Part shown: positions 438-21,077 of the stretch, one piece after another
Numbering within the stretch: the stretch's first letter is position 1
How the letters are laid out: each line of letters starts with the position of its first letter
DNA from: Spirosoma sp.
GTDB lineage: Bacteria; Bacteroidota; Bacteroidia; Cytophagales; Spirosomataceae
Reading direction: 5' to 3'
Assembly (NCBI GenBank): GCA_031425355.1
Contig: JANPJE010000145.1
Coordinates: 5,671 to 69,670 of the forward strand
DNA: 64,000 nt
The notes under the pieces: generated by a model
What the model saw: only the letters and a program-made list of their open reading frames with translations
Databases searched by the model: none
What the model was told of the DNA's origin: nothing
Translations under genes and position numbers: made by a program

Positions 438-615
438 TATTCCGGGAGCCGTAGCTGGAATCTGAATACCGGTTGATTTAATAATTTTTAACGACCAAAA
501 ACGTTTCAATGCGGTAGTGGAATAACTGTTCGTGAATACCTTTGTAAGTCATAGACTTAACGGTGTTTTGGCAAATATAATTTTTTTAATAAACTGGATA
601 ACACCATACTTTATT

Positions 616-3600
616 TTGCGGCCCTCCCGAATACACGCTACGTGGATCAAAACAGTGAGTTGCCTTATCGGGCTTCTCTGGTCGTTGAACACGTTGGGGC
701 AGGGCACTCCAACCCCTCAGCAGCCTGCTAAGGGCGGTTTACCCCCGGCTACCGTTCCAGCCCAGCGGGTGCCCGGAGCAACCTCTACTTCCCCATCTGA
801 CAGTACATCACCAACCAATAAAAAAAAACCTGCTTCCCGTACTATAAAAGGCCCATCGTCGGGTACAATTACACTGCCCAACTCGCAAACTGGGGTTACT
901 GAAACCGCACCTGAGAGTGATTTAGAGCGTGAACTCAATCCCAGGTATTCAGCACCCAACCGGCTTGGCCCCACACCAGCCCGACGTAAGGACGTAGTGC
1001 CGCCTGCTGTTGCCCGCCCGACAGAGCGGGATTCCATTCGTTCACAACCCAAGGAAGGTGTAGCAATAACGGTTGATTCGATCCAAGATAGCCCGGTTAA
1101 CCTAAATCCGCTGCTACGTTTGCAACCTAAATCTGTGCAGATAAATCAACGGTTAGCGGTGCGTTTACCTGTTCGTTTGGTTCAGCCAAAACAGGCCTGG
1201 TTTGTTCCGGTCAATAATTCAGCACCCACAATTCCCCAAAAAACAGATCCAATTGCCCAGTTGCTGCCTAAACGGGTTCAAGTCGATAGTATCCAGTCAA
1301 AGCCCGCTTTACCAACCCCAACCCGGCTATCCGTTCCACCGGTTGTTTCCAAACCATTACCAGCCAAAGCGGGCAACAATGTAGACTCTCTACGCATAGC
1401 GGCCGACAAAGTAACGCCAAAAGTCCCAATTGTAACTAAAACAGAGTCAACATCTGCTACGTCGGCAACAGTGTCGGCTCCCCGTTCGCAAACGAGTTTG
1501 ACTCAACAAACCAAACCCGTTCAACCGGCGCTTGCCAACCAAACGAAGCCAATTCAATCCCGGCCCGGTGTGGATGCACCGGGCACGTCCATGCCGGGCG
1601 CATCCACGCCGGGACTTGTTTCGCCGAACGTCGTTCGTCCGGAGGGGCGAAGAGCGATCCGTACGGATTCGTCGCGTGTAGCGCTCAACGATTCGGTTCA
1701 AACGGCTGATTCATTCAAAACAACAGTCAAATACCAGTCCAGAGATTCAACATTTTACTCGGCCGACGGGCGAACGGTGGAGTTATTCGGTGATGCGAGT
1801 GTTATTTACGGCGACATCTCGCTCAAAGCGGAATACATCCGTTTGAATTACCTCACAAATGAGGTTTACGCCAAAGGACGATACGATTCGACGGCGAAGA
1901 AGCTGATTGGGCAACCCATATTTCAGGATGGTGAAGGGAAGTATGATGCCAAAGAGATTCGCTATAATTTCAAATCCCGCAAAGGGCGAATTCAGGGTGT
2001 GATTACCCAGCAGGGTGAAGGCAATGTTCGCGGGCAGACCGTAAAGAAAGACGATCAGGATAACCTTTACATTGGCCGGGCGATTTATACGACCTGTAAT
2101 CTGGCGACACCGCACTTTCACATCAATGCCAGCAAACTGAAAATTGTTCATAACAAACAAGTTGTAGCCGGGCCGTTCAACCTTGTTATCAACCAGATTC
2201 CGCTGCCTATTGGCTTACCATTTGGTTTCTTCCCGTTCCCGAAACGGAAGGAGATTGGCGTGTCGGGCATTATTGTGCCGCAGTACGGTGAAGAACCCAA
2301 CGGGCGGGGATTTTATCTCCGCGACGGTGGATATTACTGGGCCGTGAATGAGAATCTGGGCCTCCAGTTCAAAGGGCAAATTTACTCAAGGGGAAGTTGG
2401 GGGCTGGGTCTCTCGTCGGCCTATAATAAACGGTATCGCTATAGCGGAAGCGTGAACCTGCAATTCAACCGCAACCGTTCCGGCGACCGCGTTGACACAA
2501 CACAGACACCCCGTAACGACTTTTCCTTCAGTTGGGCGCACTCGCCGATACCGCGCGGGCGGGGCAGTTTCTCGGCTAATGTGAACGTTAGCAGCAATAG
2601 CTACAACCAATTTAACTCCTACAATACACAGTCGTATATTTCCAACGTAGCGGGATCGTCGGTGCAGTACAGCCGCACGTTTGGGCAGTATGTTCGGGCG
2701 GGGGCCAATATCCGGGTGAACCAGCAGTTTGGGCAGGTAAACCAGCTAACGGGCGTTCGGGCAAACGGCAAGACCGACGTATCGACGGATTTCAACCTCG
2801 GCATCAATCAGATTTCGCCATTCGCGCTCAAAGGAGGCACGGGCCGGTGGTACGAGAGTTTTCGGGTGGGGTTAGATATCAGCGGGTCCTTTTCGGCCAG
2901 CAATACCATTCGCAGGCAACTCGATACAACCGGGCTGGGTTTTCCGGTTATTACAAATCTGGCCGTTATCAGTTCGATCGACCGGATTCTTGACAGCACC
3001 CGGCGAGCCAATAATGTTCGCTTCGGTATCGTTGAATCCGACCCAAACCTGATTGCGTTCAGTCTGGAAAATCTGCCGCAAATTCTTAGAAACCGCGTGG
3101 TGCAGGCCCGTTACAGCATTCCAATTTCGCTGCCAAACCTCAAGCTACTGCGATACATCAACCTCACACCGGGCTTTTCACTCCAGGGAAATATTTACAG
3201 TAAAAAACTACAGCCCGACGTAGCGTATAATGCCGCACACGATTCGGTGAAAATTGATACGATTCCCGGCTTTTTTCCGTCATACAATTTTTCAATCAAT
3301 GCCAGCCTGAACACGCGTTTCTACGGTACGTATTTCATCCGGGGCAAGCGTATCGAGGCCATTCGTCATACGGTAGCCCCGTCGATTTCCTTTAGCTACG
3401 TTCCCGATTTCACAAACCCATCATTTGGGCAGTTTTTCATATTGGATGCGAAGGGGTCGCTGGCGAATTTGCCGCTGTATCGCCGAACCATATCCGCTTT
3501 CCGGGGCATAGACGGCAACAACAGCAGTGGCGCGTCGAGTACACAATCAGCGTTCATCTCGTTTGGGATCGTCAACCAGTTGGAGATGAAAGTGCGTACC

Positions 3601-4440
3601 CGCAGCGATTCGGCGGGGCAGGATTTCAAGAAAATTCCCATTTTCGACAACCTGAGTCTCAACGGGAGTTATAACCTGCTGGCTCCTGACTATAAATTAT
3701 CGCCGATTTCGGTAAGCGCTAATACGCAGATTTTCAAGAATATAAGCTTTAACTTCTCGTCTACCTTCGATCCGTACGCTTTCCGGCCTTATGGCGGTAC
3801 AGCACAGTATAATTTCCCAACAAGCAACGCCCCCCTGACTCCGCTCTCCTATTCGCCCTCGATTCTGGCGTTGAATGCGGAGCAGAATTACATTAATCAG
3901 GAATATATTCGGGTGCCCAATCTATATGCTTTTCAGGCCGGACAGGGATTACTTCGCCTGACGAATATGCAGGCTTACGTTAGCGCACGGTTCGCACCGA
4001 AACAGGCGGAGAAACCCAAAACCAGCCCGACGGCATCGGATGCTACGTTGAAAGCGATCAACAACAATCCAGAACTGTATGTCGATTTCAACATTCCCTG
4101 GTCCATGAACGTCAGTTACACCTTTGGCTTGACAAAACTAACGCCGGAACTCTCACAGGTCATTCAGGCCCTGACCCTCACGGGCGATTTAAGCCTGACA
4201 CCCAAGTGGAAAGTGACAATTACTACGGGCTATGATTTTCAGTTCAAAAGTCCAACGCTGACCACCATTGGCATTAATCGCGACCTGCATTGCTGGGAAA
4301 TGGCTTTCAACTGGACACCTTATTCAGGCAATAATTTCCGGTCTGGCAACTACTCGTTCGACCTGCGGGCGCGCTCGTCCATCCTTCAGGAGTTAAAACT
4401 TAGTCGGCGACGGAGCTTCTATGACCGGGGTGGTTTTTAG
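616..4440 (+). CDS. lptD: Putative LPS-assembly protein LptD (Bacteroidota type) with a long Pro/Thr/Gln-rich N-terminal extension
   Basis: OstA-like region (VELFGDASVIYGDISLKAEYI), YTTCN..PHFHI, GIIVPQYGEE..RGFYLRDGGYY, C-terminal RDLHCWEMAFNW. The ORF opens at 532; TTG at 616 precedes a signal-like segment (start uncertain). Confidence 0.85.
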   Translation: MRPSRIHATWIKTVSCLIGLLWSLNTLGQGTPTPQQPAKGGLPPATVPAQRVPGATSTSPSDSTSPTNKKKPASRTIKGPSSGTITLPNSQTGVTETAPESDLERELNPRYSAPNRLGPTPARRKDVVPPAVARPTERDSIRSQPKEGVAITVDSIQDSPVNLNPLLRLQPKSVQINQRLAVRLPVRLVQPKQAWFVPVNNSAPTIPQKTDPIAQLLPKRVQVDSIQSKPALPTPTRLSVPPVVSKPLPAKAGNNVDSLRIAADKVTPKVPIVTKTESTSATSATVSAPRSQTSLTQQTKPVQPALANQTKPIQSRPGVDAPGTSMPGASTPGLVSPNVVRPEGRRAIRTDSSRVALNDSVQTADSFKTTVKYQSRDSTFYSADGRTVELFGDASVIYGDISLKAEYIRLNYLTNEVYAKGRYDSTAKKLIGQPIFQDGEGKYDAKEIRYNFKSRKGRIQGVITQQGEGNVRGQTVKKDDQDNLYIGRAIYTTCNLATPHFHINASKLKIVHNKQVVAGPFNLVINQIPLPIGLPFGFFPFPKRKEIGVSGIIVPQYGEEPNGRGFYLRDGGYYWAVNENLGLQFKGQIYSRGSWGLGLSSAYNKRYRYSGSVNLQFNRNRSGDRVDTTQTPRNDFSFSWAHSPIPRGRGSFSANVNVSSNSYNQFNSYNTQSYISNVAGSSVQYSRTFGQYVRAGANIRVNQQFGQVNQLTGVRANGKTDVSTDFNLGINQISPFALKGGTGRWYESFRVGLDISGSFSASNTIRRQLDTTGLGFPVITNLAVISSIDRILDSTRRANNVRFGIVESDPNLIAFSLENLPQILRNRVVQARYSIPISLPNLKLLRYINLTPGFSLQGNIYSKKLQPDVAYNAAHDSVKIDTIPGFFPSYNFSINASLNTRFYGTYFIRGKRIEAIRHTVAPSISFSYVPDFTNPSFGQFFILDAKGSLANLPLYRRTISAFRGIDGNNSSGASSTQSAFISFGIVNQLEMKVRTRSDSAGQDFKKIPIFDNLSLNGSYNLLAPDYKLSPISVSANTQIFKNISFNFSSTFDPYAFRPYGGTAQYNFPTSNAPLTPLSYSPSILALNAEQNYINQEYIRVPNLYAFQAGQGLLRLTNMQAYVSARFAPKQAEKPKTSPTASDATLKAINNNPELYVDFNIPWSMNVSYTFGLTKLTPELSQVIQALTLTGDLSLTPKWKVTITTGYDFQFKSPTLTTIGINRDLHCWEMAFNWTPYSGNNFRSGNYSFDLRARSSILQELKLSRRRSFYDRGGF

Positions 4441-6617: not shown

Positions 6618-8297
6618 CTACTCTACCGCGAACCTCACCAACCACTTCGCTACGGTTGTGCTTGTCAAGTTAAAAACAAGGTTCGGAAATAAGCCCAGCA
6701 TCAGCGCAATCAACCCAAGCGGAATCAGCAGGAGTTTTTCGCGGGCGGTCAGGTCGGTTAGGGTAGTCAGTACGTCCCGAGTGGACTCGAAAGGGCGAAT
6801 CCAGGTTGATCCAAAAAACATGCGTTGGAGTGTCCAAAGGAAATACGCAGCCGCCAGCAGAATGCCTGTTGTGGCAACCGCCGTGAGCCAGCCCGGCAGC
6901 CATTCGGATTGAAAACTGCCCATGAGCGTAAATAACTCGCCCACAAATCCTGAAAATCCCGGCAACCCCAGTGAGGCAAAAAACGCAATGGCGGTGAGTG
7001 TGGTGTACTGCGGCATGGGTTGCATAAGGCCTCTGTATGAGTCGATACGCCGGTCGTGGGTTTGGTCATACAGAACGCCAGCAATCAGGAACAGCATTGC
7101 CGATAAAACGCCATGACTGACCATCTGGTAAACAGCTCCATTAATGCCTTCGGCCGTTAATGAAGCCACACCCAGCAACACGAAACCCATGTGCGAGACC
7201 GACGAGTAGGCAATCATCTTTTTAATATCTGTTTGTGCCAGTGCGATTAATCCACCGTATACGATGGACAAAACGCCCAGCCCGGCCAGTATCTGAGCAT
7301 ACTCAGCCGCTCCATCCGGAAAGAAATTCCAGACAATTCGTATGAAGCCGTAGCCGCCAATTTTGAGCAATACGCCCGCCAGCACCACCGATACGGGCGT
7401 CGGAGCTTCAACATGAGCATCGGGCAACCACGTATGTAAGGGTACAATGGGGAGTTTGATAGCGAAGCCGATAAATAGGACCCAGAATGCCAGCATCCGG
7501 GCGGGTAGTCCTAACACGAATGGCTCGGCGGCTGGATTCAGGAAGGCGTCGGGTAAATAGTTGCCGCCATCGGCAAGGTAGCGCATATCGAACGTGTGAA
7601 CAACCTGCGCCGGATTTAACTGCCCGCTCTGCAGATACGATTGAATACCCCGAATCATTTCATCGGTCACAGCTAATGGATCATTTACCAAACCAGCCGC
7701 CACCGCCGTGCTGACAGGGTCCATGACCGACAGATACAAGCCAATCATAACCAGCAGAATCAGCAGTGAACCCAGCAGCGTGTACAGAAAAAACTTAATA
7801 GACGCATACTCCCGCCGTGGGCCGCCCCATAAGCCAATCAGGAAGTACATTGGGAGGAGCATGAACTCAAAAAAGAGGAAAAACAGGAAAAAATCGAGTG
7901 CCACGAAGCAGCCCATAATGGTGCCGGTAAGCAGCAGATACAGCGCGTAATAGGCTCTAAGCCGATGGGTCATTTGCCACGATGAGATGACGCCCACCAG
8001 CATCACCACCGCCGACAGCACGACCAGCGGCATACTGACACCGTCGACACCGACCAAATAATCAATGGATGCAATGCCCAGATTGCCAAGAGGTAAAGTA
8101 ATCCAATTGGCCTGTTCGAGAAGTTGATACCCGGCTATCGTTGTGTCAAATTCGGAATACGCTACGCCTGCCAGTGCCACTTCGGCCAGCGTTACGGTCA
8201 GGGCAATCCATCGAAATAGACCTGTTTGACTCTCTGGAAGCAGCGTTACCAGTAATGAACCAAAAAGGGGCAAAAAAATGAGTAACGATAGAATCAT
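6618..8297 (-). CDS. nuoM: NADH-quinone oxidoreductase subunit M
   Basis: GVDGVSMPLV, FFEFMLLPMYFLIGLWGG, KFFLYT, PLHTWLPDAHVEAPT, AYSSVSHMG, GLPGFSGFVGE. ATG at 8297 (MILSLL) is preferred over 8396. Confidence 0.95.
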   Translation of the reverse strand: MILSLLIFLPLFGSLLVTLLPESQTGLFRWIALTVTLAEVALAGVAYSEFDTTIAGYQLLEQANWITLPLGNLGIASIDYLVGVDGVSMPLVVLSAVVMLVGVISSWQMTHRLRAYYALYLLLTGTIMGCFVALDFFLFFLFFEFMLLPMYFLIGLWGGPRREYASIKFFLYTLLGSLLILLVMIGLYLSVMDPVSTAVAAGLVNDPLAVTDEMIRGIQSYLQSGQLNPAQVVHTFDMRYLADGGNYLPDAFLNPAAEPFVLGLPARMLAFWVLFIGFAIKLPIVPLHTWLPDAHVEAPTPVSVVLAGVLLKIGGYGFIRIVWNFFPDGAAEYAQILAGLGVLSIVYGGLIALAQTDIKKMIAYSSVSHMGFVLLGVASLTAEGINGAVYQMVSHGVLSAMLFLIAGVLYDQTHDRRIDSYRGLMQPMPQYTTLTAIAFFASLGLPGFSGFVGELFTLMGSFQSEWLPGWLTAVATTGILLAAAYFLWTLQRMFFGSTWIRPFESTRDVLTTLTDLTAREKLLLIPLGLIALMLGLFPNLVFNLTSTTVAKWLVRFAVE

Positions 8298-8361: not shown

Positions 8362-10269
8362 TTAAAGCAACCACCAAAGTACCAGCAATAAACCAAGTAC
8401 CATCACCGTAATATACGATTGTACCCGGCCATTTTGCACCGAACGCGTGACTTGCCCCAACCGACCGGTCAGCCAGGCCGCGCCGTTTACCAGACCATCA
8501 ACGCCCAAGCGGTCGAATCCGTTGGTAAGATGTGCCAGTATAACCGTAGCCACGCCCGTTCCATTTACGGCCCGGTCAACCACACGCTGATCGGTGCGGT
8601 TAAGAAACGCAGCCAGTCTTAACGTCGGTCGGATCACCATATACTTGTAGAAAAAATCTAAAAATCCGTAGTGAAGCGAAAGGCGGACGTAGCTGGAATA
8701 AGATTTCGGATCGCGCATGCTGAAGCCAAGCCAGCCGCCCAGCAACACCAGCCCAATAGAAATTGGGGCCAGCCAAACGAATGTTTCTTCCTCTGTCACT
8801 GGCACAATTCGGAAGAACCAACTACCGTGTCCCGAAAGTGGATTGACTGAGAACCAGGCCCAGACGGACAGGGCGGCCAGCAGTGCTACCGGACCACGCA
8901 TTAACCAACCAGGCTCGTGAGCCTGCGTCAACGGCATGGATTCGTTTCGATACGTACCGAAGAAAACGAGCCGCCACTGCCGGGCCATATACAGAGCTGT
9001 CAACCCCGACGATACTAATAGCAGTATTGGCACACTGTATGCCAGGCCGTTGCTCTGTGTGTCAGCCCAGGTAAAAGCACCACCCAAAACCGCTTCTTTG
9101 GATAAAAAACCTGAGAAGAAAGGCACTCCCGCCAACGCAGCCGCACAGGCGGTATACGCCAAAAACGTTATCGGCAATACCCGTCGCAAACCGCCCATCT
9201 GCCGCATATCCTGCGTATGAACGGCATGAATAACCGCCCCCGCGCTCAAAAACAGGCCAGCTTTAAAAAACGCATGGGTTAGCAAGTGGAACGTCGCTCC
9301 GCCTACGTTATCGGTCCCCATTCCGGCCACCATTAACCCCAATTGCGAGACCGTCGAGAAAGCCAGTACTTTTTTAATATCAGTTTGAAAAACGGCTGAG
9401 TACCCACCCCAGATCGTTGTGATCGCACCAATTACGGTAATGACAACCAAGGCATCGGGCGAAAGCAGCGGATGAATTCGGGCCAGCAGAAAAATACCGG
9501 CGGCAACCATCGTAGCGGCATGAAGCAAGGCCGATACGGGCGTCGGACCTTCCATCGCGTCGGGGAGCCACGACAACAACGGGAACTGCGCTGATTTCCC
9601 CATACAACCCATGAATAGGCACAACCCAAGGGCCGTTGGCAGCACGGCGGGGAGGGTACTACTTGTCAGGGCTGAAAACTCAAGTGTATCGAAATAGTAG
9701 TACGTTAGAAAAATACCAATCAGGAAGCCAACATCGCCAACGCGGTTCATCAAAAATGCTTTCTGAGCGGCCTTCGATGCGGCAGGGCGTTCGGCATAGA
9801 AACCGATGAGCAGATAAGACGCCAGCCCAACCAGTTCCCAGAATGCGTACAGTACCAGCAGATTACCCGCCAGCACAATGCCAAGCATGGCGCCAATAAA
9901 CAGTTGTAGATAAGAAAAATAACGACGTAGCTTAGGCTCGTTGTGCAGGTAAGAAATCGAATAAATCTGAACCAGCAGGGCGACAAAATGCACCAGCACC
10001 AGCATCAGGACGGCCAGCGCATCGAGTCGAAAGCTAACGCCAAACGACACCCCCGATATGGTAGCCCAATCGGACTGTACGACTACCGGTTGCTCGGGTA
10101 AGACGACCGCCAGCCACACCGACAATGCCAGACCTGCGCTGGTGAGCAAAACCGCAACCAGACCAGCCATCCGCCGGGTGGTACCAGTCAGCACCAGAAA
10201 GCCTGCAAAGGGTAGCCCCAGCAGGATAGCCATCAGTACAGGAAGCAGTTGGGAGGTATTGGCGGGCAT
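8362..10269 (-). CDS. nuoL: NADH-quinone oxidoreductase subunit L
   Basis: FWELVGLASYLLIGF, KAFLMNRVGD, GKSAQFPLLSWLPDAMEGPTPVSALLHAATMV, HAFFKAGLFL, QNGRVQSY. ATG at 10269. Confidence 0.95.
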   Translation of the reverse strand: MPANTSQLLPVLMAILLGLPFAGFLVLTGTTRRMAGLVAVLLTSAGLALSVWLAVVLPEQPVVVQSDWATISGVSFGVSFRLDALAVLMLVLVHFVALLVQIYSISYLHNEPKLRRYFSYLQLFIGAMLGIVLAGNLLVLYAFWELVGLASYLLIGFYAERPAASKAAQKAFLMNRVGDVGFLIGIFLTYYYFDTLEFSALTSSTLPAVLPTALGLCLFMGCMGKSAQFPLLSWLPDAMEGPTPVSALLHAATMVAAGIFLLARIHPLLSPDALVVITVIGAITTIWGGYSAVFQTDIKKVLAFSTVSQLGLMVAGMGTDNVGGATFHLLTHAFFKAGLFLSAGAVIHAVHTQDMRQMGGLRRVLPITFLAYTACAAALAGVPFFSGFLSKEAVLGGAFTWADTQSNGLAYSVPILLLVSSGLTALYMARQWRLVFFGTYRNESMPLTQAHEPGWLMRGPVALLAALSVWAWFSVNPLSGHGSWFFRIVPVTEEETFVWLAPISIGLVLLGGWLGFSMRDPKSYSSYVRLSLHYGFLDFFYKYMVIRPTLRLAAFLNRTDQRVVDRAVNGTGVATVILAHLTNGFDRLGVDGLVNGAAWLTGRLGQVTRSVQNGRVQSYITVMVLGLLLVLWWLL

Positions 10270-10292
10270 TCGTCGTTCGTCGGAATTGGCCG

Positions 10293-10324
10293 CAAATATC
10301 CCATTTCTACAGTATGGAAACAAA
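10293..10324 (-). promoter_or_regulatory. Possible internal Bacteroidota sigma-70 promoter for nuoL-nuoM
   Basis: Minus strand reads TTTG (10324-10321), 20 nt, GATATTTG (10300-10293); one mismatch to TTTG-N19-21-TAnnTTTG. Confidence 0.35.
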
Positions 10325-10330
10325 CGACAA

Positions 10331-10939
10331 TCAAGCCGTTTTCAACCAGCCCGTCACACTGAGCCGTTCGCTGGTGGCAGGCAGCACCTCATGCTCCAGC
10401 CGCCCGCTCTCGAAACAGACCAACCGACCACCCGTTGGCGTGATGATGACCTGCCGTTCGGGCTTACTCCCTGAACCAGGAACGTAAAGAGCCAGTTGAC
10501 CGCCATCGGTTTCATTCCAGTCGGTATTGAGGTAGCAAACGACCGATAATTTCCGGCGGGAATCACTGCGAAACTGGTCCAGATGGCGTTTGTAGAACGT
10601 GCCTGTTGGATAGAGTGCGTAGTGAAATTCGTACTCCCGCAAACCAAGGTAGCAGGTTTGGTTCATATAGTTTACAAACTCCCCGATACGTTGCAAAAAA
10701 GCGGCTTCGTCAGATGTGGCGGTGGTATCGTCCAGCCACATAATTTCATCGCCCCGAATCGTATTTTCGGTCGTTACCTGCTGATTTCCAATGCCAGCCG
10801 CCCTAAACTGTCCGGCTGTACGTCGTTCGCGCAGCCGGTTGGCAAGTGCGATTACTTCAGATTGCGTCAAAAAATTATCCGTAATGCCGTACCCGTCCTC
10901 CAGAATTCCGTCGATGATTGGGTCAAAAAGATCTGTCAC
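10331..10939 (-). CDS. 2OG-Fe(II) oxygenase, EGLN/PHD/SM-20-like prolyl 4-hydroxylase family
   Basis: RGDEIMWL, YPTGTFYKRHLD (HxD), CYLNTDW..GGQL, RLVCF, HEVLPA, RLSVTGW match PHD2-type motifs. Start overlaps the nuoK stop (ATGA). Confidence 0.88.
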   Translation of the reverse strand: MTDLFDPIIDGILEDGYGITDNFLTQSEVIALANRLRERRTAGQFRAAGIGNQQVTTENTIRGDEIMWLDDTTATSDEAAFLQRIGEFVNYMNQTCYLGLREYEFHYALYPTGTFYKRHLDQFRSDSRRKLSVVCYLNTDWNETDGGQLALYVPGSGSKPERQVIITPTGGRLVCFESGRLEHEVLPATSERLSVTGWLKTA

Positions 10940-11247
10940 TGTTTCATTTCGTTCAGTTCGTCTAATTGCGCCGTCCGGAAATGGCGATATACCTGCAAAA
11001 CAACAGCCAGCGCCACCGCCGATTCGGCAGCCGCTACGACCATAACAAACAAACTCAGCATCTGTCCCTGCAAGCGATCAGGATCATATTGACTAAAGGC
11101 TACGAGATTGATGTTGACCGCATTAAGCATTAGTTCGATGCCCATCAGCACGACAATAGCGTGGCGTTTCAGTAGGACCACTGCCAGCCCAATGCTGAAC
11201 AGGGCCGCGCCAACAATTAAGAATAAATGACTGTCAACGGGTTGCAT
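10936..11247 (-). CDS. nuoK: NADH-quinone oxidoreductase subunit K
   Basis: LMGIELMLNAVNINLVAF, FVMVVAAAESAVALA. Confidence 0.95.
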   Translation of the reverse strand: MQPVDSHLFLIVGAALFSIGLAVVLLKRHAIVVLMGIELMLNAVNINLVAFSQYDPDRLQGQMLSLFVMVVAAAESAVALAVVLQVYRHFRTAQLDELNEMKQ

Positions 11248-11788
11248 CGGGCGAGGATTTGGTTTGTGGAGACGCTAAATACGTAGCACCAACGAGAGCT
11301 GCCAGCAATAGAATCCCGACGATTTCAAACGGCAGTACGTACTCCGTCATCAGTTGCTTGCCAATGGTATTGACAGTGCTTTGCCAGCCAACAGCTTGAG
11401 TCAATAAAGTAAAATTTGCCCGTGACAGTAACGTGTACAGGGCAACAAATAAAGCACCGGCAACCAGCACGGCTACGACCCATCCTGACCCGGCACCCAC
11501 CCTATTTCCAGAGATAATCTGGTTGGGTTGCTGGCTATCGGTCGTCGTTCGTTCGGGCTTGTGGGTGAGCATGACGCCAAAAATTACCAAAACCAACACG
11601 CCCCCGACGTAAATCATAATCTGGGCAATGGCCAGAAAATCGGCACTGGCCAGCACAAACAAGCCTGCTACGCCAAGTAAGGTTAGCAGCAGAAAAAATG
11701 CTGCATAAATGACGCTTCGGGTCAGCAAAACGGCCAGTGCGCCGACAAGCGTCAGTGCGGAAAAGGCATAAAAGGCGAATTGAAGCAC
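11234..11788 (-). CDS. nuoJ: NADH-quinone oxidoreductase subunit J
   Basis: ADFLAIAQIMIYVGGVLVLVIFGVML, IGKQLMTEYVLPFEIVGILLLAALVGA. Confidence 0.95.
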   Translation of the reverse strand: MLQFAFYAFSALTLVGALAVLLTRSVIYAAFFLLLTLLGVAGLFVLASADFLAIAQIMIYVGGVLVLVIFGVMLTHKPERTTTDSQQPNQIISGNRVGAGSGWVVAVLVAGALFVALYTLLSRANFTLLTQAVGWQSTVNTIGKQLMTEYVLPFEIVGILLLAALVGATYLASPQTKSSPDATR

Positions 11789-11808
11789 TAATTTGTTAGT
11801 ATTGATGG

Positions 11809-13050
11809 TTAGGCAGGTGTCTCGTCGTCGGGTTTCGACTTCGGTTTCATTGTTGGGCGGAACGTAGCGGGCTTTGGTTTCGGAACATCAGGCTGTTTCT
11901 CTGGTTCCGATTCAACTGGCTTCGCGGGTTTCATGGTTGGCCGAAAAGCCATTGGTTTCGGTACGTCTGTATCTGCCGGACCGTCAGGCTGAACCTCTGG
12001 CTGTATTTCCGCTGCTTTTGGCGGCTTCATCGTTGGCCGAAAAGCAGGTTTTGGCTTCTCAGGTTCAGATTTTACGGGTGCGTCCGGCACTATTTCAGTT
12101 GGTTTCGCGACTGGCGGCTTCATCGTTGGCCGGAAACCGCCAGATTTTACAACTGGCTGAGCAGAGGCTGACTGCAAGTCTGGTGACGGTGTTTCTGTTT
12201 TTGATACGTCGTCTGATACGTCCGTTACCAGCGTCGTGGGCTTTTGTGTCGGCCTGAACACCGGTTTCTTTTTGGCTTCTAACCCGCCCTGGGCAATCTG
12301 CTGCATTTCATCCGGCGTTGCATCAGTCAGCGGATGTTCGATGGACGAGCCTTCCGAGTTGGCGGGTTCGGCAGGCGTTTCCGTCAGTGCGACTGGTTTG
12401 GCTGTTGGCCGAAATACAGGACGTTTCGGTGCTGTTGTTACTGGATTAGTTTCTGCTGGCGGAATCAGTGCCTTTGCAGCTACCTGAGCCGCCTTTGCTT
12501 CTTCTTTCTCCCGAACGAACTGCTCATACAACGCCCGTTTTTCATCTGCCTGCTCCGGCGTCAGTTCAGCGAAATGATACGTTAGTTTGCCAAGATCGAA
12601 CTCGCTGTAATCGAACTTCTTATCCATTGTCAGGCACTCGGTCGGGCACACCACCGTGCAAAGGCCGCAGTAGCAGCACTTAGCCATATCAATGTCGAAT
12701 TTGGCGGCATATAACCGAATCGGCGACCCATCCGATGCCCGTCCGACTTCCTCCGTAGCCTTGATAGCGTCAATGGTAATGCAATCGACCGGACAGATCT
12801 TCGCGCATTTGTCACAGACGATGCAATCCTCAATCTCGTTGCGAAGCCGGTAGCGACCATTATCGGGAACGGGCAGTTGCTCGTGTGGGTACTGAAGCGT
12901 AACGAGACCATTCTGCAAATCGAAATAATTGTCACTCGCTATCCCTTCGGAAGTTCGGCGTTTGGTAGCATTCCGAAGATGCCGAAGCGTCAGGCTCAGG
13001 CCTTTAAGCGTCGTTCGGATACCCGATTGTATGTCCTGAAAGTATGACAT
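11809..13050 (-). CDS. nuoI: NADH-quinone oxidoreductase subunit I with a ~220-aa repetitive C-terminal tail
   Basis: VTLQYP, CIVCDKCAKICP, FDIDMAKCCYCGLCTVVCP (two [4Fe-4S] motifs); lies upstream of nuoJ; ATG at 13050 (MSYFQD). Confidence 0.9.
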   Translation of the reverse strand: MSYFQDIQSGIRTTLKGLSLTLRHLRNATKRRTSEGIASDNYFDLQNGLVTLQYPHEQLPVPDNGRYRLRNEIEDCIVCDKCAKICPVDCITIDAIKATEEVGRASDGSPIRLYAAKFDIDMAKCCYCGLCTVVCPTECLTMDKKFDYSEFDLGKLTYHFAELTPEQADEKRALYEQFVREKEEAKAAQVAAKALIPPAETNPVTTAPKRPVFRPTAKPVALTETPAEPANSEGSSIEHPLTDATPDEMQQIAQGGLEAKKKPVFRPTQKPTTLVTDVSDDVSKTETPSPDLQSASAQPVVKSGGFRPTMKPPVAKPTEIVPDAPVKSEPEKPKPAFRPTMKPPKAAEIQPEVQPDGPADTDVPKPMAFRPTMKPAKPVESEPEKQPDVPKPKPATFRPTMKPKSKPDDETPA

Positions 13051-13061
13051 TTTTAAATGAG

Positions 13062-13142
13062 TGATTGATAAAATGATTGAATAAGCTGACGCATTACATT
13101 CAATCACCGCGCGGGCGGCCCCGTCAATCATTCTATCAATCA
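13062..13142. repeat. Intergenic inverted repeat made of tgat/tgaa units, with a GC-rich core
   Basis: tgattgataaaatgattga / tcaatcattctatcaatca (19 bp, 1 mismatch) around ...ccgcgcgggcggccccg. Confidence 0.7.
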
Positions 13143-13145
13143 AAA

Positions 13146-15551
13146 TTATAGCTGTGGAAATCGCTCGGGTTCGGCTTCACTCATGAGCGAATAGACCGTT
13201 TCGATTACGTCGTCGACGTTTGGTTTTGAGAAATAATCGCCATCGGAGCCGTAAGGAGGCCGGTGTGGTTTGGCCGATAAGGTACGCGGAGCAGAATCTA
13301 AATACTTATATGCATTCTGGCCTTCGACAACCTGCTGCATCATATAGGCCGATGCGCCACCCGGCACGTCTTCATCGGCAAACAACACCCGATTCGTTTT
13401 TTTAATGGAATTAACAATGGAATGATGCACGTCGAATGGCAATAATGTCTGCACGTCGATTACTTCGAGACTGATACCCAGTTGGGCCAACTGATTGGCG
13501 GCTTCCAGTACAATCCGGCACATAGAGCCGTAGGTAATTACCGTTACGTCGGAGCCAGTCCGTATAGTTTCCGGCACACCCAGCGGTACACAGAATTCAT
13601 TCAGATTAGCAGGCAGTATTTCTTTCAAACGGTACCCATTCAGCGATTCAATAAGCAAAGCCGGATCGTCGCCTTTGATGAGTGTATTGTAAAAACCAAC
13701 TGCCTGAGTCATGTTACGGGGTACCAGTACGTGCAATCCCCGAAGACTCCCAAGCATAGCACCCATCGGCGAACCCGAATGCCAGATACCTTCCAGTCGG
13801 TGGCCGCGAGTCCGAACAATAAGCGGAGCTTTTTGACCGCCTTTCGTTCGGTAATGGAGCGTAGCCAGATCGTCGGTTAGCGTGGCTAAGGTATAATAGA
13901 CATAATCGAAATATTGAATCTCGACAATGGGGCGGAGGCCACGCATGGCCATGCCAATGCCTTGCCCAATGATGGTCGTTTCGCGAATGCCGGTGTCGGT
14001 GATTCGTATTTCGCCAAATTTTTCCTGCAAACCCGCAAAACCCTGATTGACATCGCCAATTTGGCCCACATCCTCACCCAATGCGACCACGCGCGGGTCG
14101 CGGGTGAACAGGCTTTCGAAATAATGCTGAAGAAGTAAATAGCCATCGAGCACCGGACTATTGTCGGTGTACTCCGCGGGTACAGATTCAACCCGCATGG
14201 GCGAATCTGGCGACTGGCTGTATAAATGTGAACTGAACCGGTCGGTGTTCTCGGTATTGGTCCGGTCGAGCCAAGCCTTCAACCGGTTCCGACCATGGCT
14301 GTTATCCGTACGCAGAATACGTAACGCTTTTCGCACAGCAGAGACGGCATCCCGACGGATTGGCGAGAAGCTTTTGCGAAGTTCCTCGCGAATAGCCATT
14401 AATTCAGCCGACTTAGCATGATGGCGGGCTGTTTGTTGAAGCAGATCGAGAGCCTCACTTAAATCACCTTTCATCGAGTCCTGGTACGCGTTCCAAGCAG
14501 CAACACGGGCATTTTTCGCTGTTTGCTTCGCTTCGTTCTCAATGATTTCCAATTCCTCATTGGTCGCGTAGCCATTTTCCAGAATCCACTGCCGGAACAT
14601 ACGATTGCAATCGTGTTCGGCCTCCCACGTTAACCGATCTCTCGATTTGTAGCGTTCGTGGGAACCGGAAGTCGAATGTCCCTGTGGCTGGGTAAGTTCC
14701 TGTACATGAACCAGTACGGGCACATGCTCAGTACGGCAAATATGGGCCGCCTGCTGATAGGTTTCGAGCAGGGCGACGTAATCCCAGCCTTTCACCGTAA
14801 ATATCTCCATGCCTCTGTCGTCTGCATCACGCTGAAAACCAGCCAACGCTTTCGATATACTACCTTTAACCGTCTGGTATTCAACGGGTACTGATATACC
14901 ATATCCATCATCCCAGACGGACATCAGCAACGGCACCTGCAACACACCGGCGGCATTCATCGACTCCCAAAACATACCCTGAGACGTAGATGCGTCGCCA
15001 ATGGTGCCAAAGACGATTTCGTTGCCGTTGCGCGAAAAGTTGGTCAGATCGTTCAGAGCGGGGTTGTTACGAAACAGTTTGGAGGCATAGGCCAGCCCAA
15101 GCGCACGCGGAATCTGCCCCGCCGTAGGAGCAATATCACAAACAGAATTATAGAGTTCGGTTTGGTTGCGCCATTGTCCCTGCTCGTCGAGCCAGCGGGT
15201 AGCAAAGTGGCCGTTCATTGACCGACCGGCGGTGTTGGGATCGGCCTCCAGATCGGTATGTGCGTATAATTGGGCGAAAAATTCTGCCCATCGGAGTTCG
15301 CCCAGAGCCGCTACGAACGTCTGATCGCGGTAGTAGCCCGAACGAAAGTCTCCCCGTTCGAAGGCATGTGCGGCTGCCATTTGGGCCAGTTCTTTTCCAT
15401 CACCAAATATGCCAAATTTAGCCCGCCCGCCCATCACATCACGCCGACCCAACAAACTTACCTGCCTGCTTTCAAAAGCCAGCCGATAGTCTGAAAGGAT
15501 TTTTTCACGACTTAAAATATCAGTCGAGCGAAGTTGTTCGTTTGCTATCAC
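13146..15551 (-). CDS. Fused alpha/beta E1 component of a 2-oxoacid dehydrogenase (branched-chain or pyruvate type)
   Basis: TPP motif GDASTSQG..N; beta part LGEDVG..GDVNQGFAGLQ, DTGIRETTIIG, EVIDVQTLLPFD; 801 aa. Confidence 0.9.
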   Translation of the reverse strand: MIANEQLRSTDILSREKILSDYRLAFESRQVSLLGRRDVMGGRAKFGIFGDGKELAQMAAAHAFERGDFRSGYYRDQTFVAALGELRWAEFFAQLYAHTDLEADPNTAGRSMNGHFATRWLDEQGQWRNQTELYNSVCDIAPTAGQIPRALGLAYASKLFRNNPALNDLTNFSRNGNEIVFGTIGDASTSQGMFWESMNAAGVLQVPLLMSVWDDGYGISVPVEYQTVKGSISKALAGFQRDADDRGMEIFTVKGWDYVALLETYQQAAHICRTEHVPVLVHVQELTQPQGHSTSGSHERYKSRDRLTWEAEHDCNRMFRQWILENGYATNEELEIIENEAKQTAKNARVAAWNAYQDSMKGDLSEALDLLQQTARHHAKSAELMAIREELRKSFSPIRRDAVSAVRKALRILRTDNSHGRNRLKAWLDRTNTENTDRFSSHLYSQSPDSPMRVESVPAEYTDNSPVLDGYLLLQHYFESLFTRDPRVVALGEDVGQIGDVNQGFAGLQEKFGEIRITDTGIRETTIIGQGIGMAMRGLRPIVEIQYFDYVYYTLATLTDDLATLHYRTKGGQKAPLIVRTRGHRLEGIWHSGSPMGAMLGSLRGLHVLVPRNMTQAVGFYNTLIKGDDPALLIESLNGYRLKEILPANLNEFCVPLGVPETIRTGSDVTVITYGSMCRIVLEAANQLAQLGISLEVIDVQTLLPFDVHHSIVNSIKKTNRVLFADEDVPGGASAYMMQQVVEGQNAYKYLDSAPRTLSAKPHRPPYGSDGDYFSKPNVDDVIETVYSLMSEAEPERFPQL

Positions 15552-18790: not shown

Positions 18791-18861
18791 AGTCAGGAAT
18801 TAGTCAGTAATGGTCAGGTGTTGTCAGACATAGACGACCAAAACCTGACCATTCATGACTA
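18791..18861. repeat. ~10-bp periodic GTCA/TGAC tandem-inverted array between convergent genes
   Basis: gtca at 18792, 18803, 18813, 18823; tgac at 18846, 18856. Same family as 48777-48916. Confidence 0.7.
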
Positions 18862-19779
18862 TTTTTTCGCCGTCAGAGTCATCAGCCAGGCTTTGCAGTT
18901 GTCGGGCCAGGAGTTGAGCGAGCCGAACTTTGCCGTTCGCAGACCGTACCCATGCCCTCCCGCTGGATAGAGGTGCATTTCGGCTTGAACGCCGTTTTTC
19001 AGGCAGGCTAAGTAATAATTGATACTATTCTCGACAGGAACGGCTTTATCATCTTCGGAATGCACCAGAAAGGTAGGCGGTGTTTGATTGGTCACCTGTA
19101 ACTCATTGGAATAGTAAGCCACCATTTCAGGCGACGTATTAAGTTTACCCAACAGTTTATCCCGCGAACCCGTATGGGCTTTGTCGCCAAAAGTCACGAC
19201 CGGATAAAGCAAAATGGCGAAATTAGGCTTAGCCTGTTCACTTGCTTTCGGCCCCCGGTGATAATGGGTGGCGAGCGTTGCTGCCAGATGCCCACCCGCT
19301 GAGAAGCCCATAACGCCAATTTTGTTCGGGTCAATGCCATACCGGGCCGCATTTTGCCGGATTATTGTCATACCCTGCATAGCATCCATCAAGGGCACCT
19401 CCTCCTGATTTGTCATGATTTCAGGATTCGGCAATCGGTATTTCAGCACGAAAGCGGCCACCCCCATTTCATTAAACCAACGTGCTACGTCGGCCCCTTC
19501 GTGGCTCGCGGCCAGAATGCCATAGCCACCACCGGGGCATATCATCACTGCCGCCCCCGTTGCTCTCTCTTTAACAGGAAGGTAGGTCGTGATTGTCGGG
19601 ACGGATACGTTGCTGATTCTCAGAATATTATTGGCATCTGTCTCCGATTTTTCCGTAATCAACGATCCGGCAACAGCATTAGGAATGGCATTATCGGGCC
19701 AGAGTTTAGTAACCTCCTGCGCGAAGGCGGGTTGACCTAATGTAGTGGCAAGCAGCATACTAAGCAGAAGAAATCGCAT
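18859..19779 (-). CDS. Secreted alpha/beta hydrolase (carbohydrate esterase-like)
   Basis: CPGGGY, LKYRLP, GFSAGGHLA nucleophile elbow, PPTFLVHSEDD, GGHGYG; signal peptide from MRFLLL. Confidence 0.88.
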   Translation of the reverse strand: MRFLLLSMLLATTLGQPAFAQEVTKLWPDNAIPNAVAGSLITEKSETDANNILRISNVSVPTITTYLPVKERATGAAVMICPGGGYGILAASHEGADVARWFNEMGVAAFVLKYRLPNPEIMTNQEEVPLMDAMQGMTIIRQNAARYGIDPNKIGVMGFSAGGHLAATLATHYHRGPKASEQAKPNFAILLYPVVTFGDKAHTGSRDKLLGKLNTSPEMVAYYSNELQVTNQTPPTFLVHSEDDKAVPVENSINYYLACLKNGVQAEMHLYPAGGHGYGLRTAKFGSLNSWPDNCKAWLMTLTAKK

Positions 19780-19829
19780 AGTAAAGTAGGGTTGAAAACA
19801 GAAAAAGCCGACCGGATGGTCGGCTCTAC

Positions 19830-21077
19830 TCATATTTCTACCTCACTGTCGGCATCTGATAGTTTGCTGTTCGGACTTTCACGCAATACGTCAATAAGCT
19901 CTTTGACCTGATATACAGATGTGTTGTATCGGTTTCCGAGAATAATAATCACATATTCATCTTTGGGGCTAAACCAGAACATTGTGTTGTAGCCTTTCCA
20001 CCAACCAGAATGGTAAATGTATTCGGGCTGATTGGTTTCGTTCAGCATCATCCGAAAGCCATACCCGTAATTTTTGGCACCTTTCCGCTCAAAACTACGG
20101 GGTAGAAAAGCTTCATCGAGCATTTTCTTCGGCAATAGACAATCGCCGTTCAGGGCACGATACCAGCGAAACAGATCGCCAGTTGTTGAATATATTCCCT
20201 TATCACCAACGACATCATCATAATAGTCTTTCGGAATGCGTCTATTCCACTGGTAACCAGCCGTTCGATGATGGTTAATTGAATCATTTTTTGTCGTTGC
20301 CACAAAGGTCTGGTGCATACCCAATGGCTCAAAAATGTTCTTGTGAACAAATGCCTCGTAACTCTGGCCGGTTACCTTTTCAATAATCGACGCCAGAACC
20401 ATGTAATTGGTATTGCTGTAGCTAAATCCCCGACCCGGAATATTATACCTCTGGGGCGTCGGCTTAACCGTTGCGAACCAATGCATGATGGTCGCGTTGG
20501 ACGGGTAAGGCTTTTCTTTCTTATAAAAATTAACCTTCATGCTATCATCGAAGGCATATTGATAGTTGGGCAGGCCGCTTCGATGGCTCAACAATTCGCG
20601 GATGGTGATGCCGTGATATGGGAAGCCAGGGTAAAATTTCTGAATGGTATCCTCAAATTTGAGTTTGCCCGTTTCAATCAATTTTAGGGTACCGACAGCC
20701 GTGAATGTCTTCGAAAGGGAAGCCAACTGGAATTTTGAATCATCAACCAGAGTGTCGCGCTGATTTCGTTCAAAATGACCCAGTCCAAAGCATTTCTTGT
20801 ACAGAACCATGCCTTTTTGAGCCACCAATACGTTACCATTCAATCCCCCGCGTACCTTCTGCTGAAAAATTTCATCAATCTGCCGCACCTTTTCATCCGC
20901 CCTGATCTGCTCTCGAACATTTTTTTGTTGAGATGCTGTCAGAACTTGCTCATCGGCACAGGTACGCAATGCGTTTGCTGTCTGATTAAGGGTTTTCTGG
21001 TCCTGCCCACAGGAGACACCGACTCCTGCGACTATCAAAACACTAATCCAACTCCAGATTTTATTTGTCCACACCAT
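19830..21077 (-). CDS. Serine hydrolase, beta-lactamase/AmpC-PBP superfamily, probable lipoprotein
   Basis: SLSK (SxxK), LLSHRSGL, YSN, HSG; lipobox-like GVSC. Confidence 0.85.
   Translation of the reverse strand: MVWTNKIWSWISVLIVAGVGVSCGQDQKTLNQTANALRTCADEQVLTASQQKNVREQIRADEKVRQIDEIFQQKVRGGLNGNVLVAQKGMVLYKKCFGLGHFERNQRDTLVDDSKFQLASLSKTFTAVGTLKLIETGKLKFEDTIQKFYPGFPYHGITIRELLSHRSGLPNYQYAFDDSMKVNFYKKEKPYPSNATIMHWFATVKPTPQRYNIPGRGFSYSNTNYMVLASIIEKVTGQSYEAFVHKNIFEPLGMHQTFVATTKNDSINHHRTAGYQWNRRIPKDYYDDVVGDKGIYSTTGDLFRWYRALNGDCLLPKKMLDEAFLPRSFERKGAKNYGYGFRMMLNETNQPEYIYHSGWWKGYNTMFWFSPKDEYVIIILGNRYNTSVYQVKELIDVLRESPNSKLSDADSEVEI

What the first reader, a model, noticed from the sequence alone, without database searches (positions are those of the whole stretch)
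10331..13050. PHD-like prolyl hydroxylase inside a complex I operon whose NuoI carries Pro-rich motif repeats: candidate O2/2-oxoglutarate-sensing module
Seen: a 202-aa 2OG-Fe(II) oxygenase with EGLN/PHD-type motifs (RGDEIMW, YKRHLD, YLN..W..GG, HEVLP, RLSVTGW) sits between nuoK and nuoL, and its ATG overlaps the nuoK stop. The same operon encodes NuoI with six FRPTxKP repeats and begins with a 2-oxoacid dehydrogenase E1. Established: PHDs hydroxylate prolines in flexible segments using O2 and 2OG; the Pseudomonas homologue PPHD acts on EF-Tu; canonical nuo operons have no such gene. Inference: the enzyme may modify the NuoI tail or another complex I partner, linking complex I assembly or turnover to oxygen. 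No substrate is shown by the sequence.
Basis: partly seen in the sequence, partly recalled or inferred. Interest (0 to 1): 0.8.

Follow-up and report, generated by a model that had tools for sequence, protein, structure and literature searches.

The report
Passenger prolyl hydroxylase among respiratory genes
A predicted proline-hydroxylating enzyme sits between respiratory complex I genes throughout one Spirosoma-centred lineage, but the proline-rich NuoI tail it was proposed to modify also occurs in many relatives where the enzyme is not found, so the enzyme is likely an inherited passenger with an ordinary target such as elongation factor Tu.

Summary
The 202-aa gene is a PPHD-type 2OG-Fe(II) prolyl-4-hydroxylase: about 40% identical to P. 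putida PPHD, TM-score 0.89, metal triad intact. It lies between nuoK and nuoL of a second, scattered complex I gene set that has no nuoF of its own. The position is conserved in Spirosoma, Nibrella, Rudanella, Fibrella and close genera, and fits one ancestral insertion.

The proposed enzyme-substrate module is not supported. The NuoI tail is present in 60 of 60 family loci, with equal repeat counts whether the enzyme is adjacent (13), elsewhere (27) or not found (20). It extends across Cytophagales, where the enzyme is never adjacent (0 of 40). A promoter-like element precedes nuoL in 43 of 45 family loci. The enzyme therefore likely ends an upstream transcription unit, in a slot that other unrelated genes also occupy.

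Best reading: a passenger PPHD homologue, probably acting on EF-Tu (Pro54 is present; untested). The order-wide repeated NuoI motif (PKP[AV]F[KR]P[TS][MF]KP) on a headless complex I is the better lead.

The parts
13146..15551 (-). Fused alpha/beta 2-oxoacid dehydrogenase E1 (801 aa); likely first gene of the E1-nuoI-J-K-oxygenase unit
   Evidence: Pfam E1_dh, Transket_pyr and Transketolase_C. Adjacent to nuoI in 21 of 59 family loci and 0 of 40 loci outside the family.
13062..13142 (-). Intergenic inverted repeat (hairpin) between E1 and nuoI
   Evidence: RNA fold -31.6 kcal/mol, z -3.79. Relatives carry palindromic repeats of different sequence at the same place (by eye).
11809..13050 (-). 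nuoI of the second complex I set: 2x[4Fe-4S] core (about 185 aa) plus a roughly 230-aa Pro/Lys/Ala-rich tail
   Evidence: Two CxxCxxCxxxCP motifs. NuoI models match below their cut-offs. The canonical paralog on C242 is 26% identical, 188 aa long and has no such tail.
11842..12414 (-). Six FRPT[AQM]KP motifs, starting at 12414, 12258, 12135, 12042, 11946 and 11862; family consensus PKP[AV]F[KR]P[TS][MF]KP
   Evidence: profile from 381 motif windows; last copy a median 12 aa from the C-terminus.
11234..11788 (-). nuoJ
   Evidence: PF00499, E 3e-35.
10936..11247 (-). nuoK; its TGA overlaps the oxygenase GTG
   Evidence: PF00420 and NF004320 over cut-off; sequence.
10331..10939 (-). PPHD-type 2OG-Fe(II) prolyl-4-hydroxylase, 202 aa (H119, D121, H183; R192; finger loop about A48-D64)
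   Evidence: Best PDB sequence hit 4iw3/4j25, E 9e-42. AF2 pLDDT 90.8. Foldseek top hit 4iw3_A, TM 0.89. One copy in the assembly.
10293..10324 (-). Conserved promoter-like element for nuoL-nuoM: TTTG, 20 nt, GATATTTG (Bacteroidota -33/-7 type, with G for the first T)
   Evidence: 43 of 45 distinct family nuoL upstream regions; 0 of 9 nuoK-nuoL junctions in other families; genome background 7.7e-5 per 175 nt.
8362..10269 (-). nuoL (likely start is the ATG at 10269, not the TTG at 10323)
   Evidence: TIGR01974 over cut-off. Relatives start at the equivalent ATG.
6618..8297 (-). nuoM (likely start about 8297)
   Evidence: TIGR01972 over cut-off. Start inferred from relatives.

Best explanation
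The gene encodes a predicted PPHD-type Fe(II)/2-oxoglutarate prolyl-4-hydroxylase that likely entered the nuoK-nuoL gap once, in the ancestor of the Spirosoma-Nibrella-Rudanella-Fibrella lineage, and is likely carried there as a passenger, probably hydroxylating an ordinary cytoplasmic protein such as EF-Tu (Pro54) rather than the NuoI tail. Shown: fold and catalytic residues, conserved position in the lineage, independence of tail and enzyme, a conserved promoter-like element before nuoL, and other genes in the same slot. Inferred: co-transcription as the last gene of an E1-nuoI-nuoJ-nuoK unit; a single insertion; catalysis (O2 + 2OG + prolyl residue giving trans-4-hydroxyproline + succinate + CO2, as for PPHD); EF-Tu as substrate (about 50%). 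The NuoI tail is an older, order-wide feature of a headless second complex I, likely a multivalent docking or tethering segment with its own function.
For: Enzyme. Tail independent of enzyme: 60 of 60 family NuoI loci have a tail; at least 3 motifs in 12/13 (adjacent), 24/27 (elsewhere) and 16/20 (not found), medians 6, 6 and 5.5; exact FRPTxKP in 8 of 20 'not found' genomes, up to 8 copies in G116. A profile search found no full-length homologue in 27 of 27 such genomes and found 3 of 3 positive controls. Other families: adjacent 0 of 40; tail in 15/17 with the enzyme and 21/23 without; 9 of 40 show nuoI to nuoM together with no oxygenase; Fisher p 0.55 (kin not independent). Losses inside the linked lineage keep the tail: G013, G097, G120. 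Splits separate enzyme and nuoI in G113, S. profusum and L054. Quick tree: the linked label needs 3 changes, with unlinked Runella nested among linked rows. Only 4 fixed differences between linked and free enzymes, none in the triad or finger loop. nuoL promoter-like element in 43 of 45; in 8 of 42 loci a gap of 1 kb or more lies between enzyme and element, with an extra ORF seen in 5 of the 6 of these inspected. EF-Tu has Pro54 and aligns without gaps to 4iw3_B. PPHD hydroxylates EF-Tu P54 (passages of PMC6235002 and PMC7864055).
Against: The linkage is stable: nuoK is upstream in 29 of the 31 closest loci, often with overlapping stop and start codons, across 10 genera. That is long retention for a neutral passenger. 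EF-Tu Pro54 is a generally conserved residue (recalled), so its presence does not show that it is this enzyme's substrate. The enzyme ends 4 residues after the last GW, against 9 in the PPHD chain, and PPHD's C-terminus contacts substrate (PMC6235002 passage), so the substrate may differ; short ends also occur in 12 of 51 unlinked enzymes. The tree is the quick one, with many open forks. The promoter element departs from the consensus at its first base and was not tested for activity. Independence across taxa does not exclude a lineage-specific, non-essential tail modification.
Confidence: 0.7

Rival explanations
1. Regulon-level link without a complex I substrate: the enzyme keeps an EF-Tu-like target, but its place in the E1-nuoI-J-K unit is selected so that O2/2OG-dependent hydroxylation is expressed together with 2-oxoacid oxidation and the second complex I.
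For: Retention across 10 genera with tight junctions. Where E1 precedes nuoI, the -7 box before nuoI is mostly absent (4/21 against 31/38), consistent with one transcript from E1.
Against: In S. profusum and L054 the enzyme follows unrelated genes, and in G113 it has left E1-nuoI-J. Runella keeps the orthologue unlinked. Most relatives carry it elsewhere or lack it.
Confidence: 0.15
2. One reading: the enzyme hydroxylates prolines in the NuoI tail motifs and so gates assembly, docking or turnover of the second complex I by oxygen, as a gain specific to this lineage.
For: Same predicted transcription unit; a disordered tail with 46 Pro in 233 aa; animal PHDs act on disordered segments (PMC7864055 passage); the enzyme's C-terminus is shorter than PPHD's.
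Against: Tail and repeat number are unchanged with or without the enzyme, including identical FRPTxKP repeats in genomes where it is not found. The enzyme occurs with a tail-less NuoI (G031, G163) or with no match to this NuoI (G152, G180, G195). No sequence shift in the substrate loop accompanies linkage beyond a one-residue length difference. The motif prolines follow Lys or Arg, not Ala as in EF-Tu DNAPEE or HIF LxxLAP (recalled).
Confidence: 0.07
3. The enzyme is an accessory maturation factor that hydroxylates another subunit of the second complex I (for example NuoB, C, D or a loop of NuoL).
For: In 31 of the 31 closest loci it stays beside at least one nuo gene, even after splits. Hydroxylation of a core subunit is known in mitochondrial complex I assembly (NDUFAF5; recalled; different fold).
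Against: The second complex I set is present in genomes where the enzyme is not found, such as G097 and G121. The enzyme is present in genomes with no match to this NuoI.
Confidence: 0.08

Closest known systems
Pseudomonas putida PPHD (PDB 4IW3, 4J25), EF-Tu Pro54 prolyl-4-hydroxylase
   Same: About 40% identity over the whole length, TM 0.89, HxD...H triad, IRGD finger-loop base, same overall size.
   Different: C-terminus about 5 residues shorter; encoded among nuo genes in one Bacteroidota lineage; substrate untested.
Animal HIF prolyl hydroxylases (EGLN1/PHD2, TaPHD) and Dictyostelium PhyA
   Same: Fold and active site: E about 1e-13, 24-28% identity, TM about 0.85.
   Different: The protein ends right after the last strand, with no C-terminal helix in the model. 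No HIF-like system is known here, and O2-sensing kinetics are untested. A hypoxia-sensing role is not established even for PPHD according to a PMC6235002 passage, though PMC5701443 describes PPHD as oxygen sensing.
11-subunit (NuoEFG-less) complex I, with the Bacillus NuoC N-terminal extension as a parallel for the tail (PMC3144371)
   Same: A second set of Q- and P-module subunits without a second nuoF. An extension on a hydrophilic subunit, which that paper suggests may contact partner proteins.
   Different: Here the genes are scattered over several loci, coexist with a canonical 14-subunit set, and the extension is a C-terminal repeated motif on NuoI.

Membership tests
PPHD/EGLN-type prolyl-4-hydroxylases | Double-stranded beta-helix fold most like PPHD/PHD2 | tested here: met
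   AF2 pLDDT 90.8; Foldseek ranks 1-9 are PPHD, TM 0.89 to 4iw3_A.
PPHD/EGLN-type prolyl-4-hydroxylases | HxD...H iron triad | tested here: met
   H119, D121 and H183 are invariant in 56 of 56 aligned sequences and align to PPHD's triad (H124/D126/H183 in PMC6235002).
PPHD/EGLN-type prolyl-4-hydroxylases | 2OG-binding Arg and PHD-type active-site residues (IRGD, W, Y, R, YLN, final W) | tested here: met
   R62, D64, W68, Y110, Y116, R129, Y136, R192 and W198 are invariant and identical in PPHD and PHD2. Their roles are recalled from PHD2.
PPHD/EGLN-type prolyl-4-hydroxylases | Mobile beta2/beta3 finger loop | tested here: met
   Residues 50-58 are the only segment with pLDDT under 50 and align to the PPHD loop (A53-D70 in PMC6235002).
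PPHD (EF-Tu hydroxylase) in the strict sense | C-terminal segment that contacts the substrate | tested here: inconclusive
   4 residues after the last GW against 9 in the PPHD chain; 3-5 residues in 39 of 45 linked enzymes.
PPHD (EF-Tu hydroxylase) in the strict sense | Hydroxylates EF-Tu Pro54 | not testable with these tools
   The target Pro54 is present; activity needs an assay.
Oxygen-sensing PHDs | Slow, high-Km reaction with O2 and a downstream reader of the hydroxyproline | not testable with these tools
   No kinetic or expression data.
11-subunit (headless) complex I | Extra Q/P-module set without its own NuoF | tested here: met
   5 of 5 single-contig family genomes have one nuoF, two nuoH and two nuoC. 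The own assembly has two nuoA, two nuoB, two nuoD and one nuoF. Sharing of the canonical NuoEFG is not excluded.
11-subunit (headless) complex I | All 11 subunits present in this genome | tested here: inconclusive
   A second nuoH was not found in this 87%-complete assembly; nuoC was not searched by family here.
Enzyme-substrate module (oxygenase plus NuoI tail) | Co-occurrence of enzyme and tail | tested here: not met

The most novel reading that the evidence does not exclude
In the Spirosoma-Fibrella lineage a PPHD enzyme was recruited to hydroxylate prolines in the repeated PKPxF[KR]PTMKP motifs of the NuoI tail. Oxygen and 2-oxoglutarate would then control docking of an electron donor onto a headless complex I: a bacterial counterpart of HIF-style sensing acting directly on a respiratory complex.
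Probability: 0.07. Interest if true: 0.75.

Novelty: new member of a known kind. Interest (0 to 1): 0.3.

Why it matters
As a passenger PPHD homologue it is modest: it extends the family to Cytophagales and offers cultured, non-pathogenic hosts for testing whether EF-Tu hydroxylation is general. If the enzyme did act on the tail, it would be a direct O2-dependent modification of a bacterial respiratory complex, which would be surprising. The side result may matter more. Most Cytophagales genomes searched carry a second NuoI (62 of 80), part of a scattered, NuoF-less complex I set where checked, and it usually ends in a variable number of copies of a conserved motif (36 of 40 loci outside the family). 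The electron donor of 11-subunit complexes is an open question, and this motif is a ready-made bait for finding it. I found neither the gene arrangement nor the tail in print (searches, listings only; most subscription papers and all supplements were not searched).

Tried and rejected
- Co-folding of the oxygenase alignment with NuoI residues 326-413 and Fe gave no verdict (score 0.03, controls not run). It is not used as evidence either way.
- No RNA holder was listed for window 9000-13600, so transcription was not tested.
- The ESM Atlas search on the tail did not run.
- The primary PPHD paper (Scotti 2014) was not held, so EF-Tu contact residues could not be mapped one by one.
- The sigma-70 promoter scan gave chance-level counts (10 against 8.8) and does not cover Bacteroidota promoters.
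- A TAnnTTTG at the E1 stop codon looked like a nuoI promoter, but is not conserved in close relatives; rejected.
- E1 as a conserved partner of the tailed NuoI: adjacency is family-limited (0 of 40 outside); rejected as an order-wide link.
- Neighbours of the unlinked oxygenases give no single functional context. prfC is divergently adjacent in Emticicia-like genomes only; not taken as evidence.
- The careful tree did not finish; only the quick tree was used, and no one-clade test was run.
- Four look-ups in earlier scan findings returned nothing.
Full report
Observation. The minus strand carries E1 (13146-15551), nuoI (11809-13050), nuoJ, nuoK (10936-11247), a 202-aa oxygenase (10331-10939), nuoL and nuoM. 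The oxygenase start overlaps the nuoK stop as GTGA, so the codon is GTG. NuoI has two 4Fe-4S motifs and a tail of about 230 aa with six FRPT[AQM]KP copies; 100,000 shuffles never gave two copies. Relatives place the host in Spirosoma.

The enzyme. The best solved relative is P. putida PPHD (E 9e-42), far ahead of human PHD2 (about 1e-13). The AF2 model (pLDDT 90.8) matches 4iw3_A with TM 0.89 and 40% identity. H119, D121, H183, R192 and the PHD-type residues are invariant in a 56-sequence alignment, and the only low-confidence segment (50-58) is the finger loop. There is one copy in the assembly. Databases name relatives '2OG-Fe(II) oxygenase' or 'SM-20-related protein' (4454 hits at E 1e-20 or better). 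PPHD hydroxylates EF-Tu Pro54 (passages of PMC6235002; PMC7864055; abstract and passages of PMC5701443). The primary paper was not held. The genome's one EF-Tu match has Pro54 and aligns without gaps to 4iw3_B. Against a strict EF-Tu assignment, the enzyme's C-terminus is about 5 residues shorter than PPHD's. Short ends (3-5 residues after GW) occur in 39 of 45 linked and 12 of 51 unlinked enzymes.

Which complex I. The assembly has a canonical set (C242, C511, C314) and a second, scattered set: nuoA and nuoB on C99, nuoD on C454, a probable nuoN on C188, and nuoI-J-K-L-M here. A second nuoH was not found in this 87%-complete assembly. Five of five single-contig family genomes have one nuoF but two nuoH and two nuoC. 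This fits the 11-subunit type, reported for Bacteroidetes in PMC3144371 (passages). The passages seen in PMC4453560 list only Chitinophaga as a Bacteroidetes with two complete isozymes.

How conserved is the position. All 23 genus-level loci have nuoK and/or nuoL next to the enzyme; 4 of 4 full-length matches in other families do not. Among the best 80 of 425 loci from genome contigs, the 31 closest (Spirosoma, Nibrella, Rudanella, Fibrella and unnamed Cytophagales) all lie beside nuo genes: nuoK in 29, nuoL in 24. One further partial Spirosoma locus has nuoL. The other 48 (Runella, Emticicia, Cyclobacteriaceae, Saprospiraceae and others) show no nuo gene in the DNA held; one of these, L069, is an 81%-identical partial copy that I did not examine further. 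On a quick tree of 96 rows the linked label needs 3 changes, with unlinked Runella nested among linked rows; one origin is not ruled out and not proven. In other families 9 of 40 loci show nuoI to nuoM together with no oxygenase (nuoJ undetected in one), which suggests the ancestral order. Linked and free enzymes differ at only 4 nearly fixed positions, none catalytic or in the finger loop.

Does the enzyme go with the tail. No. I took 60 of the 108 family genomes with a NuoI match, chosen by hand to span genera. The enzyme was adjacent in 13, elsewhere in 27 and not found in 20. The 'elsewhere' group includes G113, where it follows a relocated nuoK, and G105, a contig break. All 60 have a tail. 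Three or more motifs occur in 12/13, 24/27 and 16/20, with medians 6, 6 and 5.5; one 'not found' tail is partly masked. Exact FRPTxKP occurs in 8 of the 20 'not found' genomes. A profile search found no full-length homologue in 27 of 27 'not found' genomes (5 had short 1e-6 matches) and found 3 of 3 controls. Outside the family I examined 40 of 57 NuoI loci: the enzyme was adjacent in 0; a tail of 40 aa or more was present in 15/17 with the enzyme and 21/23 without; the motif there drifts towards KPxxKP variants. Five of 20 enzyme-positive genomes have a tail-less NuoI or no match to it. Fisher p is 0.55 on 53 genomes, with the caveat that kin are not independent. Losses inside the linked lineage leave the tail intact (G013, G097, G120). 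When the cluster splits, the enzyme stays with nuoK or nuoL but not specifically with nuoI (G113, S. profusum, L054).

Why a passenger can sit here. Directly after the oxygenase stop lies TTTG-N20-GATATTTG, 24 nt before the nuoL ATG. The pattern TT[TG]G-N18-21-GATATTTG occurs in 43 of 45 distinct family nuoL upstream regions (near-duplicate genomes not removed), whichever gene precedes it. It occurs in 0 of 9 nuoK-nuoL junctions of other families; background is 7.7e-5 per 175 nt. It resembles the Bacteroidota -33/-7 consensus TTTG/TANNTTTG (passages of PMC6847099 and PMC9723704), with G in place of a nearly invariant T, so its activity is inferred. If nuoL-nuoM has its own promoter, the gap after nuoK is a unit boundary. 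In 8 of 42 loci a gap of 1 kb or more separates the enzyme from the element. Of 8 long-gap loci inspected (6 of those 8 plus L053 and L060), 7 showed an extra ORF, looking by eye like methyltransferases or other dioxygenases. In outgroup genera various unrelated genes follow nuoK. Upstream, a -7 box precedes nuoI in 31 of 38 loci without E1 and in 4 of 21 with E1, so E1-nuoI-J-K-oxygenase is likely one unit here. E1 is next to nuoI in 0 of 40 genomes of other families. In Runella the enzyme sits beside an alpha/beta-hydrolase 54% identical to the one at window 18859-19833, which hints at local shuffling.

Mechanism and odds. Most likely (0.70): a passenger PPHD-type hydroxylase with a non-complex-I target, EF-Tu being the best single candidate (about even odds). 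Rivals: selected co-expression without a complex I substrate (0.15), maturation of another subunit (0.08), tail hydroxylation (0.07). The main point against 'pure passenger' is retention across 10 genera with tight junctions.

Novelty. The enzyme is a new member of a known family. I found no paper on this arrangement or on the NuoI tail (listings only, supplements not read). An unchecked earlier scan note (e1-1523256) describes passenger genes in another 11-subunit nuo operon; it is a lead, not support. The tail, with consensus PKP[AV]F[KR]P[TS][MF]KP and a last copy a median 12 aa from the C-terminus, parallels the Bacillus NuoC extension suggested to contact partner proteins (PMC3144371 passage). 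It deserves its own follow-up.

Noticed in passing
window 11842-12414 (-); loci L111-L170, L173-L212: The NuoI tail of the second complex I is an order-wide, copy-number-variable array of one short motif (up to 18 copies counted; NuoI up to 779 aa) with a copy near the C-terminus. Its partner is unknown; it is a candidate docking element for the electron donor.
   Followed up: partly
window 10293-10324 (-): Highly conserved promoter-like element before nuoL whose -7 box begins with G instead of T in 44 of 45 family loci; may be a deliberately weak or regulated promoter.
   Followed up: partly
window 13062-13142: Strong intergenic hairpin between E1 and nuoI; relatives have palindromes of different sequence at the same place, like REP-type elements.
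   Followed up: partly
L068, L070-L074: In Emticicia-like genomes the unlinked oxygenase is divergently adjacent to prfC (release factor 3, named from its sequence by eye), another translational GTPase; seen directly in 4 loci inspected.
   Followed up: partly
L009, L023, L060, L126 (between oxygenase and nuoL): A second, unrelated ORF of about 320 aa that looks by eye like a phytanoyl-CoA-type dioxygenase occupies the same slot on the opposite strand in several genomes.
   Followed up: no
G000 C242:16858-17298: The canonical nuo cluster also holds a 146-aa non-nuo ORF between nuoD and nuoE, and its NuoG is short (359 aa).
   Followed up: no
L069 (contig labelled Enterovirga): An 81%-identical partial copy of the oxygenase (residues 80-202) with no nuo genes upstream; possibly misbinned or chimeric.
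   Followed up: no
G180 C1:97724-98302: Oxygenase homologue with one in-frame TAG, in a genome with no match to this NuoI.
   Followed up: no
window 532-4440 (+): A 1302-aa ORF that looks by eye like an LptD-type outer-membrane protein, with a roughly 380-aa Pro/Thr/Ser-rich N-terminal region.
   Followed up: no
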